Shown piece by piece: positions 44,529-49,960 of a stretch of 64,000 nucleotides of DNA. Within the stretch, counting starts at the first letter, position 1; every line of letters begins with the position of its first letter. The position numbers and the translations under genes are program-made. Below the pieces are notes generated by a model. It ran no database searches and had not been told where the DNA came from. It saw only the letters and a list, made by a program, of their open reading frames with translations. Origin of the DNA: Eledone cirrhosa. Lineage: Eukaryota. The DNA is taken from assembly GCA_964016885.1 (NCBI GenBank), contig OZ024741.1, positions 43,586,001 to 43,650,000 of the forward strand, in the 5' to 3' direction.

Positions 44529-45169
44529 TATATATATATGTATATATATATACATATATATATATATATATATATATATATATATATATATATATATATA
44601 TATATATATATATATATATATATATATATATATATATGTTGTATTATCATATAGTGACTGTTGTGTCATGGAAAGTGTATGAGTGCATGCAACTATACAC
44701 TTTTCTGCTTCTTATAGAAGTGCATTATACTATCCGAGACATGAAAACATCCTGCAGATGTTAAGAATTATGTATCTTTTTATATACAAAACATTCTGCC
44801 CAAAGGAAGATGTAGATTTGCTACTTAAACCAAATACAGTATTTCAATGGTGAGGTATGTCATATACTAAATTAACGTTGATTCTAAACTTTTCAAGGAT
44901 GCATTTCCGCTTCCACAGACAGTTTTATTTTTTATCAAATCGATAATGCACTAACATTAACTATAATATATATATATGAAAAGATCCAGGACCCAGACGA
45001 CTGAGCTCCGGTCATTTCAACAGTCCACCTGGTATCTTACCACACTCTCTTTCTTATATATTTTATGTCTGTATATATATATATATGTGTGTATATATAT
45101 ATATATATATATATATATATATATATATATATATATATATATATATATATATATATATATATATATATA

Positions 45170-45750
45170 TTACTCTTTTACTATTTTACCTGTTTCAACC
45201 GGCTGAGGCCATGCTGGGGCACCTCCCTTGTTGCTACACATGTTGTCTCCAGCCTGTATAGGTTGGCCACTGGTGTTAGAGGGAGTTTGTTGCTGCTGCC
45301 CTTAGTTTTCCCTTGTGTCTTGCTGTGGGCTCATCCGGGATTCTGGATAACAAGGTGTCGAGATGTTTCTTGAAGACATCCACCTCCACGTCATGCACAT
45401 CTCTCAGATCCCTCGGCAGATTGTTGAAGAGTTCAGGGCCCATGAATCCCAGGCTATTGCATTACCTGCTCCTTATTCTAGATGTGGAATACGGGACCTT
45501 TGGCACTACACAGTGACGTCCTGTTCTACGGTTGGTCCAGCTCCCAATGCCAAAGTTTGGTGCTAGTCCCTCCACGATTTTCCACATGTAGATCAGTGCG
45601 TATCTCACCCGTCTTCGTTCCAAGGAGTAGAGGTTCAGTTCCTTTAGCCTCTCCCAGTAGCTTGTCTCCCTCATCTTGGCAATCCTCTTGGTGTAGCTTC
45701 GCTGGATTGCTTCAAGCTCCGTGGTTAGTTTGACACTATGGGGTGACACA
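45170..45750 (-). mobile_element. CR1-group LINE 3' end
   Basis: LEAIQRSYTKRI...SYWERLKELNLYSLERRR.RY..IY.WKI.EGL.PN; 3' hairpin gtgccccagcatggcc and tail gtaaaa(g/t)agtaaaagagt. Confidence 0.93.
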
Positions 45751-45931
45751 AATAATATATATATATATATATATATGTATGTATATATATATATATATAT
45801 ATTTATATATATATATATATATATATGTATTGAAGTTTCCGTTGAAAATAGAAAAAATCATAGGAGTGAAGAGTGCTCTATTTAAGTACCAGAGCAAAAT
45901 TTAATGTATAAAAATCAATACAAAATAATTA

Positions 45932-46001
45932 CCTCATTACCAGAGGTTTCCCGAATAAGACGAATACGAAAGAGACGTCTTCATTCGTTCGTCGGACGAG
46001 G
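45932..46001 (-). ncRNA. Type-I hammerhead ribozyme (U4C core variant) in a pLTR-like insert (about 45830-47160)
   Basis: cctcgt-CCGACGA-acgaat.aagacg...cgtcttattcgg-GAAAC-ctctg-GTA-atgagg. Confidence 0.7.
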
Positions 46002-47167
46002 CAATATAAATCTTAGATAAATATTTTGAAAGTCTCCTCAAGAAATGCAAGAAAAATTATATATATATATAGATGAAGGTAATATAATAGTCATATAACA
46101 TATAAAATATATAAAAAAATATTTTAAGAAATATATTTAGGTGTGTGTATATGTATGTATATACACTCACAGATATACATATGTATATATGTACAAATGC
46201 GTGTGTATAGTGAAAAAGTGTGCGTAAATATATGTATATATGTAACGATAGACACACACATGATATGAGTGTATGTTTGACAGGTATACAGAGAAAACAG
46301 GGTGTTAGATACATTATAAGAATATGAAGGCACGCTTATAAACACGCACGCACGCGCGTACACTTATATGAGGGAGAAAAAGAGGTAAGGGAATGTAATA
46401 GTAAAAAGAAAGTATCAATCTCGATATAACTATAAAAATGGAATAATAAATTTGCAAAGTAAAGAAAAGAAAACAAACAAGGTACACGCGTACTTACATA
46501 CATATATCTAAAAGAAACATATATCTATAAAAAATATATATATATACACACGCAAAAGGTGCAGACAAAAGCGTATGCAAACGTACATACACACATAGGA
46601 TGCACATATATATATATACATATACATCGCCCCGTGTATATCTAATACTCATACGTACGCGACTGTATACACACACAACCCATACACACATAAATACATA
46701 TATACATATATATATATACATACGCACACACACACATCCATATATGCAGTACGCACACATTCACACACACACACATATATACACTCACGCACGTTGACCC
46801 GCTAACATGCACGCACATAAAAATAAGAATGTACAAAAACATAGATGTAAAGACACAGGTATAAAAACACACATACACACAAACACATATATACATATAT
46901 ATACACTCACGCGCGCGTACATACGGAGGCGTTCGTGTACATATATTGAAAGTATACACACGTAAAGACGCTCAGACACATAGATACAGGGTGTAAAAAC
47001 AGCCTTGTGAATGAGTGAGTGCAAATATAAAAATATAAAACTGGCTGCTAAATAACAGAAAATATCTGGAGTGGAAAACGCAAATGATTTGTGTAATCAG
47101 GTAGTGAAGAAAATAGGGAAGTAAAAGGTGGAAAGTGAAGATATTAGGTAGTGAATCGGAGAGTAAA

Positions 47168-48470
47168 GTGGGGGATTTGAAATGGATGGTTACCAACCCA
47201 ATCCTCAATGAATTGGATCTTCCATTTCTGTGCATTGATGGATGGGCTGATACCTTGTGTATTGAGTAAGAATGAGGAGGCTAGTTTGTTGGCTGGTTTT
47301 GAGTGTTGCAAGGGGCTTGTTTTGTGATTGTGTGTTAGTGACAGAATGGATGGTGTTCGGTGATGGCTAAAATGTTTTTCTCTATCTCTTTTGCCAGGTT
47401 CATGGCTAAAAAAGAAAGATTTTTTTTCTGTTCAGGCAGCAGTTTTTGATTGTATTTGCGGTTACAACATTGGATAGGGTTGCAGTTCCCTCTTTTGTTG
47501 TTGTTGTTGTATTTGTTGTAATTTTGTCTTTGTGAAAAGACTGGAACAGCGTTATTTTCGTATTTGTTGTTGTTGTGATCGTGTCTTTGTGAAAAGACTG
47601 GAGCAGCATTACTTTTGTTGTTTTTGTTGTTGCAATCATGTCTTTGTGAGGAGACTGGAGCAGCATTACCGCAGCAGGGGGTGGCTTTATTGTGGTTTGT
47701 GGGTTGGCATGGAGCCCCTATTCTGTTCGTGCGTTGTGTCCGAGGAAGATGAGTGAAGTTACAGTCAGTCAGCAGACAAAACCTCTCACGTTGGGAATGT
47801 TGGCAGATTTTGGGACTGCGACCTATACGTGCGGGCAGCGAGCTTTGGTGTTGGCTGGCAGTGTTAGTGCGCCTATTACCCGGTAAATGGGTAAATATAC
47901 AGTCGCTACCTGTGCATAGCCTCTGACGTAGAGAGTAGCGGCATATTTTGGGGTGTCTAGTATGTGTAGTGGGGGGTGCATACATCTCCATAGATTATTT
48001 TTTTAAAAAGTTATTTTGACTATGGCATGGCTGTGGTGGTGATGTGGGGGAAGAAAGAATTAGTGGTGATGATGATGATGACAACTGTGGTGGGAGAGAG
48101 AGAGCAGTGGTCCATTACTAGCAGTTGATGTGGCAGAAGATGGTGATGGCGATAATGATGGCTGCGTGAGTGGCTGGGGATACTGTAATTCAGTAATTCA
48201 GCTATCATGCTTGAATTCAGTAAGGGTTGTTCCTGGCTTTCTGGCTGTTGTTGTTGTTGGGGCTGTTTTGTTGTTGTGAATGTTGTTGTTGTTGTTGTTG
48301 CTTCTGTTGTTTTGTTTGTCCATTGGAGTAAAAATGTCGAAGTTTTTCAAAATGGTTTTGAATTAGTTTGAAAGAGATTTCTACATGTTTTAGTTTGTTG
48401 TGTATCTGCTTAGCAGACCTCGTGTTAAATGTTTGAGCTGTTTTTTCAGCAATTTCATTCAGATTTCATT
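47168..48470 (-). mobile_element. CR1-group LINE 5' part (ORF1), same family as 18112-19105
   Basis: KICRYSLRQRLCTGSDCIFTH, KICQHSQRERFCLLTDCNFTH, three NAAPVFSQR repeats and GRSNSL.IGLVTIHFKSP are shared with the 18-kb copy. Confidence 0.93.
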
Positions 48471-48799
48471 AAGCAACAAACTCCCTCTAACACCAGTGGC
48501 CAACCTATACAGGCTGGAGACAACATGTGTAGCAACAAGGGCGGTGCCCCAGCATGGCCTCAGCCGGATGGCTGAAACAGGTAAAAGAGTAAAAGAGTAA
48601 TATATATATATATATATATATATATATATATATATATATATATACACACACATATATATATATATATACAGACATAAAATATATAAGAAAGAGAGTGTGG
48701 TTAGATACCAGGTGAACTGTTGAAATGACCGGAGCTCAGTCGTCTGGGTCCTGAATGTTTTCATATATATATATTAAAGTTAATGTTAGTGCATTATCG

Positions 48800-49960
48800 A
48801 TTTGAAAAAAAATAAAACTGTCTGTGGAAGCGGAAATGCATCCTTGAAAAGTTTAGAATCAACGTTAATTTAGTATATGACATACCTCACCATTGAAATA
48901 CTGTATTTGGTTTAAGTAACAAATCTACATCTTCCTTTGGACAGAATGTTTTGTATATAAAAAGATACATAATTCTTAACATCTGCAGGATGTTTTCATG
49001 TCTCGGATAGTATAATGCTCTTCTATAAGAAGCAGAAAAGTGTATAGTTGCATGCACTCATACACTTTCCATGACACAACAGTCACTATATGATAATACA
49101 AAATGCTAATCCAGAATCCGGAAATGCGTTCTCGTTGTAGAGTTATTTGTAATCTAGGAACGATTTACATTTTGTTTATCAATACGTACCGGAATTACCT
49201 AAATCAACATGTATGTCAATACAGATGTTCGCTGACTTGATTTGGATTTCAGATATTACATGAAATTCCCAAACAGTTTAAAAGGATTTGGCACTGGATG
49301 TATTTATTGTGGGTCACGAAAATATGCTAACATGAGTCGGAATATCTGTATATGAACACATGTATGAATACGATTGTCAGCAGTTTCGAAATGTGTGTTC
49401 TTTCTGTAAAAATCAGCTAAGGAATTAAACGGAAAAGTGCATAAGAATTTTAGTAGATTCGATCAAAGCTACATAAATGCAGGCATACAAAATCTTAATA
49501 CATCTACATGAACATGGAAGCAGATGTTATCTTTGACTCTATGTAAATCAATCCAGAAGCAGCCCCGGCAAAACACACATATATACACAAATATTCACCC
49601 CCACACACATCCTCTCTCTCTCTCTCTCTCTCTCTCTCTCTCTCTCTCTCTCTCTCTCTCTCTCTCTCTCTCTCTCTCTCTCTCTCACACACACACAAAC
49701 ATAGACGCACATACCACCACACACATGTAAGATGTATGTGTGAATGCCTGTGTGCGTGCTTATCACCGTGTATACGTAAGTATATTTATGTTAGTAATTG
49801 TAGGATTGTAATGAAGAATGTTGAGATAAAGGTGATTAAGATATATTGGATTCGCTCAGTAAAGTGGAAGGAACGTTCCAGGAAATCCAATTACAGCATA
49901 CATCCTTATATAATTGCCGTGGTTCCATGTCTTTCAAATTTATAATATCGTTAAAATGTT
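48800..49960 (+). pseudogene. Degenerate intronless Cys-loop LGIC remnant D (clearest copy)
   Basis: One frame reads MIIQNANPESG...SYL*S(R for W)NDLHF...SIQMFADLIWISDIT*NS (WxPDIxxN motif, W at 49243)...IVGHENMLT*VGISVYE. Then TC after a frameshift, TW, and after the (CT)n tract SIHPYIIAVV (TM1-like). Confidence 0.65.

What the first reader, a model, noticed from the sequence alone, without database searches (positions are those of the whole stretch)
44640..49100. 3.2-kb inversion with a staggered-break-type inverted duplication of about 640 bp
The left arm continues inward into the CR1 3' end. The right arm continues outward into receptor remnant D. The arm is therefore ordinary chromosome (LINE tail, (TA)n, HHR half, receptor 5' region) copied to the other breakpoint, not a transposon TIR. 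The left breakpoint is a long (TA)n tract. The event duplicated the 5' part of a receptor pseudogene in inverted orientation, a possible route to mixed-strand arrays.
Basis: partly seen in the sequence, partly recalled or inferred. Interest (0 to 1): 0.7.

Follow-up and report, generated by a model that had tools for sequence, protein, structure and literature searches.

The report
Local inverted duplication beside TA microsatellite
A 630-base piece of ordinary, non-coding chromosome was copied back-to-front 3.2 kb away, with one end at a long TA repeat; this is a known kind of DNA-repair accident, and whether the DNA in between was also flipped cannot be told from this sequence alone.

Summary
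The inverted duplication is real: arms 44636-45294 and 48472-49104, 614 of 629 aligned bases identical, 3177-bp spacer. The arm is ordinary chromosome, not a transposon end: a CR1-type ORF2 frame runs across the left arm's inner edge, and the left outer edge is a (TA)55 tract.

The inversion is not shown. It needs the right arm to be native on its outer side, which rests on 'receptor remnant D'. No search or motif test supported that remnant. Two no-inversion histories give the same sequence, and the three siblings I could orient (one weakly) have unflipped spacers. Odds: no inversion about 0.47, inversion about 0.40.

The mechanism class is known (template switch, templated insertion, staggered break). 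More interesting is the context: 12 of 14 local inverted duplications in the window have an outer end within 12 bp of a (TA)>=5 tract (1.4 expected; 0 of 14 for CA, GA or poly-A). Several lie in Penelope-like repeats, where this is already known.

The parts
44636..45294 (-). Left arm of the inverted duplication; the outer 3 bp include a 2-bp AT shared with the (TA)n and one mismatch
48472..49104 (+). Right arm of the inverted duplication
45295..48471 (.). Spacer, 3177 bp; original orientation unknown
44528..44637 (.). (TA)55 tract at the left outer edge; also the tail or host tract of the LINE-like 3' fragment 44207-44527
45171..45754 (-). 5'-truncated CR1-type LINE 3' end (584 bp), (TA)n on both sides; ORF2 frame crosses the arm edge at 45294/5
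   Evidence: 67% to P0003, which carries RVT_1
48472..48599 (+). 128-bp copy of the same LINE tail, cut inside ORF2 at the right inner junction
45072..45170 (.). Internal (TA)n of the left arm, 99 bp; its counterpart 48600-48668 is 69 bp
48715..48775 (+). 3' half of a degenerate hammerhead-like dispersed repeat (mirror 44966-45023); relatives at 51283-51382 and 59835-59892
   Evidence: no Rfam hit
48776..49104 (+).
49105..49560 (+). Right flank, 'receptor remnant D'; Cys-loop-like by eye only, no statistical support
47150..48471 (-). ORF1 and endonuclease start of a second LINE family, cut at both ends; its 5' cut is the right inner junction
   Evidence: 79-84% to 18139-19114; endonuclease start resembles P0005

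Best explanation
One arm is a locally templated, reverse-complement copy of the other, made during break repair or stalled replication (template switch out and back), with the edge of the (TA)55 tract as one switch point, and the 3.2-kb spacer kept its orientation. Two versions. (B) A break at 48471/49105; the free 3' end primed 3.2 kb upstream on the opposite strand at 45294, copied about 630 bp until it met the (TA)n tract, and rejoined, so the RIGHT arm is new (four-point order 3-2-1-4). (D) A break inside a (TA)n tract; the end primed at 49104, copied about 1.1 kb back through the whole 584-bp CR1 fragment to the next (TA)n and re-annealed TA-to-TA, so 44639-45754 on the LEFT is new; a later deletion removed the inner part of the donor and the 5' end of the neighbouring ORF1. 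Shown: the duplication, its local origin, the TA edge, left-inner continuity. Inferred: which arm is new, spacer orientation, the repair pathway and a causal role of TA hairpins. The shared core (local templated inverted copy bounded by (TA)n) I hold at about 0.85; the no-inversion reading at 0.47 (B about 0.32, D about 0.15). The piece has no function I can detect; it is a mutational scar.
For: Arms and continuity. Of the 14 catalogued inverted duplications, three lie in repeats with a non-duplicated relative in the window and can be oriented: 31158-31616 and 59572-59712 clearly, 11128-11285 weakly (a 12-bp flank match). In all three the spacer is not flipped, and in 11128-11285 the TA-adjacent arm looks native, as in model B. 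The stretch 44639-45754 is bounded by (TA)n on both sides, as model D needs; 9 of 13 fragment ends and junctions checked lie within 12 bp of (TA)>=5. Two post-hoc hints that 48471 and 49105 were once neighbours or that 49104/5 is a new junction: placing them side by side gives a perfect 10-bp palindrome (0.6% of 20,000 random joins), and a 7-bp imperfect tandem starts 5 bp outside the right arm (4.9% of 17,524 positions). Order 3-2-1-4 and its mirror make 31% of human-chimp events against 23% for inverted-spacer types (passage of PMC5453318). Templated inverted insertions at breaks are documented (abstract of PMC11724301); TA repeats break and are repaired by MMEJ (passages of PMC13645644).
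Against: In two of the three oriented siblings the TA-adjacent arm is the NEW one; for this locus that polarity means inversion or model D, not B. Those siblings have spacers of 14-92 bp and lie in Penelope-like repeats, so they are weak analogues. The missing 5' part of ORF1 is not at 49105+ (A 0.48/T 0.17 in ORF1 sense against A 0.34/T 0.31 there), so B needs an earlier 5' truncation or a deletion. D needs two events. By eye one frame across 49104 shows Cys-loop-like motifs at about the right spacing (rank 2 in the window, score 48 against a shuffled maximum of 44.8 +/- 4.6); if real, it excludes B. Junction microhomology is only 0-3 bp under every model. The two junction hints were noticed after looking at several features and are not corrected for that.
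Confidence: 0.47

Rival explanations
1. One reading: a single event inverted 45295-48471 and duplicated the arm, by a blunt break at the (TA)n plus a staggered break at 48472/49104, or by a template switch of order 1-3-4-2. The left arm is new.
For: One event explains everything; the break falls at a fragile (TA)55 tract; LINE 5' ends here often abut (TA)n, so a former (TA)n-ORF1 junction is plausible; the TA-adjacent arm is the new one in 2 of 3 oriented siblings; the footprint is common (17 of 29 Drosophila inversions, abstract of PMC1885836; a 2,026-bp microinversion with 59-bp terminal duplications, passages of PMC7584159).
Against: Right-outer continuity is unproven. No element is split between the left flank and the far end of the spacer. 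0 of 3 oriented siblings have a flipped spacer. It needs 3.8 kb of reverse copying or a 630-nt overhang.
Confidence: 0.33
2. Two steps: the left arm arose as a 630-bp inverted insertion at the (TA)n, and later recombination between the two arms flipped the spacer (possibly a recurrent flip).
For: 630-bp arms at 97.6% identity 3.2 kb apart are a workable recombination substrate (established knowledge of NAHR between inverted repeats).
Against: Needs two events; no direct sign in one haplotype.
Confidence: 0.07
3. Retroelement origin: the left copy is a CR1 3' transduction reinserted nearby, or two separate CR1 insertions whose tails seeded a conversion tract that ran outward.
For: 44639-45754 reads as truncated LINE + 3' flank + (TA)n with (TA)n on both sides.
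Against: Reinsertion within 3 kb of the source and later loss of almost the whole source are both needed. The tails are as alike (3 substitutions in 124 columns) as the unique part (9 in 433), which fits one duplication. Twin priming is excluded because the ORF1 piece and the tail belong to different families.
Confidence: 0.05
4. Assembly or library artefact (fold-back read, amplification chimera, or two haplotypes joined head to head).
For: Only one assembly was seen; the left junction is a long (TA)n; 2.2% is not far above the ~1.2% heterozygosity reported for a squid (passage of PMC9068888).
Against: The arms differ by 12 scattered substitutions, a 4-bp indel and differently built (TA)n tracts, not by homopolymer errors; the right inner junction has no repeat to mis-join on; sibling duplications span 79-99% identity, as expected of events of different ages.
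Confidence: 0.05
5. The arms are long terminal inverted repeats of a DNA transposon (foldback, Mutator-like) that targets TA microsatellites.
For: TA-targeting TIR elements exist (search listing of PMC4486113).
Against: The arm is a patchwork cut inside a LINE ORF2; no TA tract or target duplication at the right outer edge; no third copy in the window; no transposase seen in the spacer.
Confidence: 0.02

Closest known systems
Four-point template-switch events (Loytynoja and Goldman 2017, PMC5453318; passages read)
   Same: One switch out and back yields an inverted repeat, with the spacer unflipped (3-2-1-4 / 1-4-3-2) or flipped (1-3-4-2 / 3-1-2-4); both fit this locus.
   Different: Their events are short-range, explaining small mutation clusters, and were typed against a reference; here the arm is 630 bp, the spacer 3.2 kb, and no reference is at hand. 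The passages read do not mention TA tracts.
Staggered-break inversions with inverted breakpoint duplications (Ranz et al. 2007, PMC1885836, abstract; D. subobscura O7 microinversion, PMC7584159, passages)
   Same: Inverted duplication of ordinary sequence at the ends of a segment, possibly from one breakpoint only.
   Different: Those cases were shown against an uninverted chromosome; here inversion is unproven.
Templated inverted insertions at breaks, and MMEJ repair of TA-repeat breaks (PMC11724301 abstract; PMC13645644 passages)
   Same: Nearby DNA copied in reverse with minimal microhomology; TA tracts as fragile, self-complementary ends.
   Different: Those are experimental yeast and cancer-cell data with mostly very short local foldbacks (about 5-34 bp); this is a 630-bp copy in an assembled invertebrate genome.
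Inverted pseudo-LTR structures of Penelope-like elements (Craig et al. 2021, PMC8557442, passages)
   Same: Inverted terminal copies and a bias for (TA)n targets; probably explains several of the smaller siblings in the window.
   Different: The spacer here holds fragments of two other LINE families, not a Penelope body, and only about 60 bp of the arm is hammerhead-like repeat.

Membership tests
Staggered-break inversion | Inverted duplication of non-TIR sequence at the segment ends | tested here: met
Staggered-break inversion | One copy continuous inward with the spacer | tested here: met
   ORF2 frame crosses 45294/5
Staggered-break inversion | Other copy continuous outward with the flank | tested here: inconclusive
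   No homology crosses 49104 above chance
Staggered-break inversion | Uninverted single-arm state in an outgroup or other haplotype | not testable with these tools
   No eukaryote genome collection or reads available
Template-switch inverted repeat without inversion (3-2-1-4 / 1-4-3-2) | One arm native on both sides, spacer collinear with the reference | tested here: inconclusive
   Left-inner side met; outer sides untestable without a reference; hints only
Template-switch inverted repeat without inversion (3-2-1-4 / 1-4-3-2) | Microhomology or filler at the new junctions | tested here: inconclusive
   0-3 bp; 7-bp tandem at the right outer junction, 4.9% background
TIR DNA transposon / foldback element | TIRs delimited by a target-site duplication | tested here: not met
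   (TA)n on the left only; right flank unrelated
TIR DNA transposon / foldback element | Dispersed copies of the arm | tested here: inconclusive
   None in 64 kb; genome-wide count not possible
Twin-primed (5'-inverted) LINE insertion | Inverted piece and 3' tail from the same element | tested here: not met
   Tail 67% to P0003 and 42% to P0005; RT of the ORF1 family's other copy 47% to P0003 and 54% to P0005 (different regions of the proteins, so indirect); its endonuclease start matches P0005
Penelope-like element inverted pLTR | Arms flank a Penelope RT/GIY-YIG body | tested here: not met
   Spacer holds CR1-type fragments
Hammerhead ribozyme | Complete three-stem core in the arm | tested here: not met
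   Only the 3' half aligns; no Rfam hit; z=-0.74
Cys-loop (nAChR-like / chemotactile) receptor pseudogene | Significant similarity to Cys-loop ligand-binding domains | tested here: not met
   Pfam, PDB, word index (17), phmmer on 1.84 billion proteins (33; two repeat-protein artefacts, 36, 37)
Cys-loop (nAChR-like / chemotactile) receptor pseudogene | Family motifs in order and spacing (motifs recalled, not from a call) | tested here: inconclusive
   Rank 2, within the shuffled range; absent from the top 6 with a codon-decay score
Cys-loop (nAChR-like / chemotactile) receptor pseudogene | Alignment to the species' own receptor genes with frameshifts allowed | not testable with these tools
   No such protein was retrieved to align against

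The most novel reading that the evidence does not exclude
In this (TA)n-rich genome, TA microsatellites act as universal self-complementary switch pads that make local inverted duplications at about one per 5 kb, from 30-bp fold-backs to kilobase copies and inversions, largely independent of Penelope transposition. This locus would be the kilobase end of a leading mutational process that steadily flips and copies intergenic DNA, gene-array DNA included.
Probability: 0.35. Interest if true: 0.6.

Novelty: new member of a known kind. Interest (0 to 1): 0.3.

Why it matters
Alone, the locus is a neutral scar of a well-described kind. Its value is as a marker: three competing histories predict three different single-arm ancestors, so one ortholog settles the mechanism. 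If the window-wide link between (TA)n edges and inverted duplications holds genome-wide outside Penelope repeats, it would tie TA-repeat fragility, known from cancer cells and plasmids, to germline genome evolution in animals where (AT)n can exceed 10% of the genome (squid, passage of PMC9068888). It would also warn that such arms can be mistaken for transposon TIRs or assembly errors. The link to mixed-strand receptor arrays is unsupported at present.

Tried and rejected
Receptor identity of 48853-49422 (read with X at stops): PDB one chance hit at E=0.72 and none for the shorter piece; Pfam none; word-index search none among 88 candidates; phmmer on representatives gave 2 hits, both tandem-repeat proteins matched on short low-score stretches. 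In-window tblastn found no paralog, best E=0.03. Frameshift-aware alignment among the by-eye remnants 48780-49560(+), 43275-44059(-) and 3514-4000(-): scores 58, 36 and 53, reached by 1, 20 and 1 of 40 shuffles; a wrong-strand control also scored 48 (1 of 40) and the window background reached 55-58, so rejected as evidence. 43275-44059(-) gave nothing in Pfam or PDB either. The language-model atlas could not be used for this frame, so that look stayed undone. Search for a full-length ORF1 to see whether its 5' part lies at 49105+: no hit among 603 candidates. Names or organisms for P0003-P0008 could not be looked up. Rfam over the window: 150 of 167 matches shown, nearly all miRNA-model matches to microsatellite hairpins below gathering score; the 17 lowest were not seen. 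Twin priming, TIR element and Penelope inverted pLTR were rejected for this locus (see membership tests). The first self-BLAST was swamped by microsatellites and redone on a masked copy. Pfam did not confirm my by-eye mariner and GIY-YIG readings elsewhere in the window. Literature: 10 searches; the listings of 42, 65, 66 and 79 showed no paper on TA-bounded inverted duplications in cephalopods, which is weak evidence of absence (open-licence library only; no supplements read).
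Full report
OBSERVATION. A masked self-comparison shows two inverted matches, 44640-45070/48670-49100 (97.9%, E=0) and 45171-45294/48472-48599, split only by an internal (TA)n. Aligned whole, the arms are 44636-45294 and 48472-49104, 614 of 629 aligned bases identical, around a 3177-bp spacer. The non-microsatellite parts differ at 12 of 557 columns (4 transitions and 8 transversions as aligned; 5 and 7 with the gap placed as) plus one 4-bp indel; the internal tracts are 99 and 69 bp. This looks like aged divergence rather than read error. 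The age is 0.022/(2 x rate); I have no rate for this animal. The host is probably an octopus or other cephalopod. That is my inference from recalled features ((TA)n at 6.6% of the window; CR1-, RTE- and Penelope-like repeats); no call named the organism.

ANATOMY. Read from the inner edge outward, each arm holds the last 124-128 bp of a CR1-type LINE, a (TA)n, about 100 bp ending in a 58-bp dispersed motif, and about 330 bp found nowhere else in the window. The LINE piece on the left is 584 bp (45171-45754, minus) with (TA)n on both sides. Its ORF2 matches P0003 at 101/150 codons in the spacer and 9/15 inside the arm without a gap, so the left arm is continuous inward. On the right the same ORF2 is cut and joined head-to-head to an ORF1/endonuclease fragment (47150-48471, minus) of another LINE family, whose second copy lies at 18139-20990. 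Different families rule out twin priming; the family call is indirect, from identities to P0003 and P0005 in different regions. The 58-bp motif aligns with the 3' half of 51283-51382, which folds into a hammerhead-like three-way junction with a decayed core, so 'HHR half' is fair as homology, though Rfam does not recognise it. The left outer edge is a (TA)55 tract; the right outer edge has no TA tract within 330 bp.

THE WEAK LINK. An inversion is implied only if the right arm is native on its outer side. By eye one frame there does recall a Cys-loop ligand-binding domain (recalled motifs). Every test was negative or inconclusive: Pfam, PDB, word-index search (17), phmmer on 1.84 billion proteins (33, hits shown spurious in 35-37), in-window paralog searches, and motif chaining, where the frame ranked second with 48 against a shuffled window maximum of 44.8 +/- 4.6 (62) and dropped out of the top six under a codon-decay score (63). 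It has 11 stops in 190 codons, close to random. The remnant may exist, but it is unverified, and so is the continuity.

THREE HISTORIES, ONE SEQUENCE. B: break at 48471/49105, 630 bp copied in reverse from 3.2 kb upstream until the (TA)n edge, right arm new, no inversion; order 3-2-1-4. D: a 1.1-kb inverted copy (44639-45754) laid into a (TA)n tract, TA to TA, followed by a deletion in the donor; no inversion. All predict left-inner continuity. A and D both predict right-outer continuity, so even a verified receptor would not prove inversion.

WEIGHING THEM. For B: setting 48471 beside 49105 gives a perfect 10-bp palindrome (0.6% of 20,000 random joins), and a short tandem sits just outside the right arm (4.9% background); both were noticed post hoc. 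Against B: ORF1's missing 5' part is not at 49105+ by strand composition, and no full ORF1 was found to test this directly. Siblings cut both ways: three could be oriented with a non-duplicated relative; none has a flipped spacer, but in two the TA-adjacent arm is the new one. In human-chimp data the unflipped types are 31% and the flipped 23% (PMC5453318, passages). I put B at 0.32, D at 0.15, A at 0.33, a two-step flip at 0.07, retro-transduction or conversion at 0.05, artefact at 0.05 and TIR element at 0.02. These are judgements, not computed values.

CONTEXT. One search listed 36 local (<5 kb) repeat pairs, 21 of them inverted. I dropped 4 SINE-SINE pairs, 1 pair between dispersed family members, 1 extra match tied to 32358-32739 and one 24-bp palindrome nested in another event's spacer; merged the two halves of this finding; and added 50559-50974, found by eye in masked DNA. 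That leaves 14 events of 79-99% identity. Twelve of 14 have an outer end within 12 bp of (TA)>=5, against 1.36 expected from sliding each event along the window (P about 2e-11); inner ends 3 of 14 (0.95 expected); CA/TG, GA/TC and poly-A tracts 0 of 14 at outer ends. Leaving out this finding and the two events with TA at both ends gives 9 of 11 (0.99 expected). The effect weakens for tracts of >=10 units (6 of 14 within 12 bp, 0.79 expected). Controls: SINE-like copies 3 of 11 and local direct duplications 3 of 5 have an end within 12 bp, so TA edges attract direct copies too and the effect is not unique to inversions. Limits: one window; the null ignores regional clustering; boundaries were refined by hand; and by eye at least four events lie in Penelope-like or hammerhead-bearing repeats, for which inverted ends and (TA)n targeting are published (PMC8557442, passages).

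MECHANISM. Shown: local origin, TA boundary, minimal microhomology (2 bp at the TA edge). Inferred from established work: long (TA)n extrude hairpins or cruciforms, stall forks or are cut, and supply microhomology for end joining (PMC13645644, passages); free ends copy nearby DNA in reverse and rejoin (PMC11724301, abstract); such repair and staggered breaks leave the same footprint (PMC7584159, passages; PMC1885836, abstract). The product has no evident function, but 630-bp arms at 97.6% could promote later flips or deletion of the spacer.

VERDICT. A real inverted duplication of a known kind; inversion undecided; receptor story unverified. Interest 0.30. The window-wide TA association is the part worth following (probability about 0.35 that it is a general, Penelope-independent process; interest 0.6 if so). 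Unchecked: other haplotypes, reads, genome-wide copy number, the species' receptor genes, and all paper supplements. bioRxiv 10.64898/2026.07.22.740005 (two passages) added nothing.

Noticed in passing
window 1113-60749 (14 events, coordinates): Fourteen local inverted duplications in 64 kb, 12 with an outer end within 12 bp of (TA)>=5 (1.4 expected); no such link to CA, GA or poly-A tracts.
   Followed up: partly
window 42322-42639 / 44207-44527: Inverted pair (94%, 318 bp) of a LINE-like 3' end ending in a CCHH-like motif (by eye), sharing the (TA)n 44528-44637 with the finding; either two insertions or a TA-to-TA templated copy.
   Followed up: partly
window 23019-23267 / 23931-24174: Inverted pair (94%, about 245 bp) with long (TA)n at both outer ends; the left arm runs into a GIY-YIG-like tail by eye (no Pfam hit).
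   Followed up: partly
window 18139-20990 (+) and 21769-21999 (-): CR1-type LINE body cut at a (TA)n, with a 3' end resembling the same protein (P0005) lying 0.8 kb downstream on the opposite strand between (TA)n tracts: a possible second small inversion or a separate insertion.
   Followed up: no
window 51283-51382 (+); 25572-25625 (+); about 31380-31440 (-): Hammerhead-like elements: a degenerate three-way junction (folded), one with an intact-looking core and stem II (folded), and one on the minus strand seen by eye; none appeared among the 150 of 167 Rfam matches shown.
   Followed up: partly
window 51655-51789 and 59232-59345: A 135-bp fold-back next to (TA)n whose relative at 59232-59345 seems to have lost the hairpin centre and kept a short palindrome.
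   Followed up: partly
window 33004-33221 / 33667-33884; 30569-30706 / 30859-30996; 24452-24565: Local direct duplications that also start or end at or near TA tracts.
   Followed up: partly
window 43275-44059 (-) and 3514-4000 (-): Further regions with Cys-loop-like words by eye; mutual scores borderline and no database support.
   Followed up: partly
window 54530-54850 (-): Mariner-like transposase words by eye (recalled motif); no Pfam hit.
   Followed up: partly
window 55220-55600 (-): 126-codon open frame in otherwise stop-rich DNA; no Pfam family at E<=10; unexplained.
   Followed up: partly
window 10494-63105 (11 loci): A SINE-like repeat of about 190 bp at 11 loci, with tandem partial copies at 10494-10868 and 29717-30033.
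   Followed up: no
window 48447-48477: A 6-bp word shared by the CR1 template and the ORF1 fragment lies 19 bp inside the right inner junction, next to a 9-bp tandem repeat; seen by eye, could be repair filler or chance.
   Followed up: no
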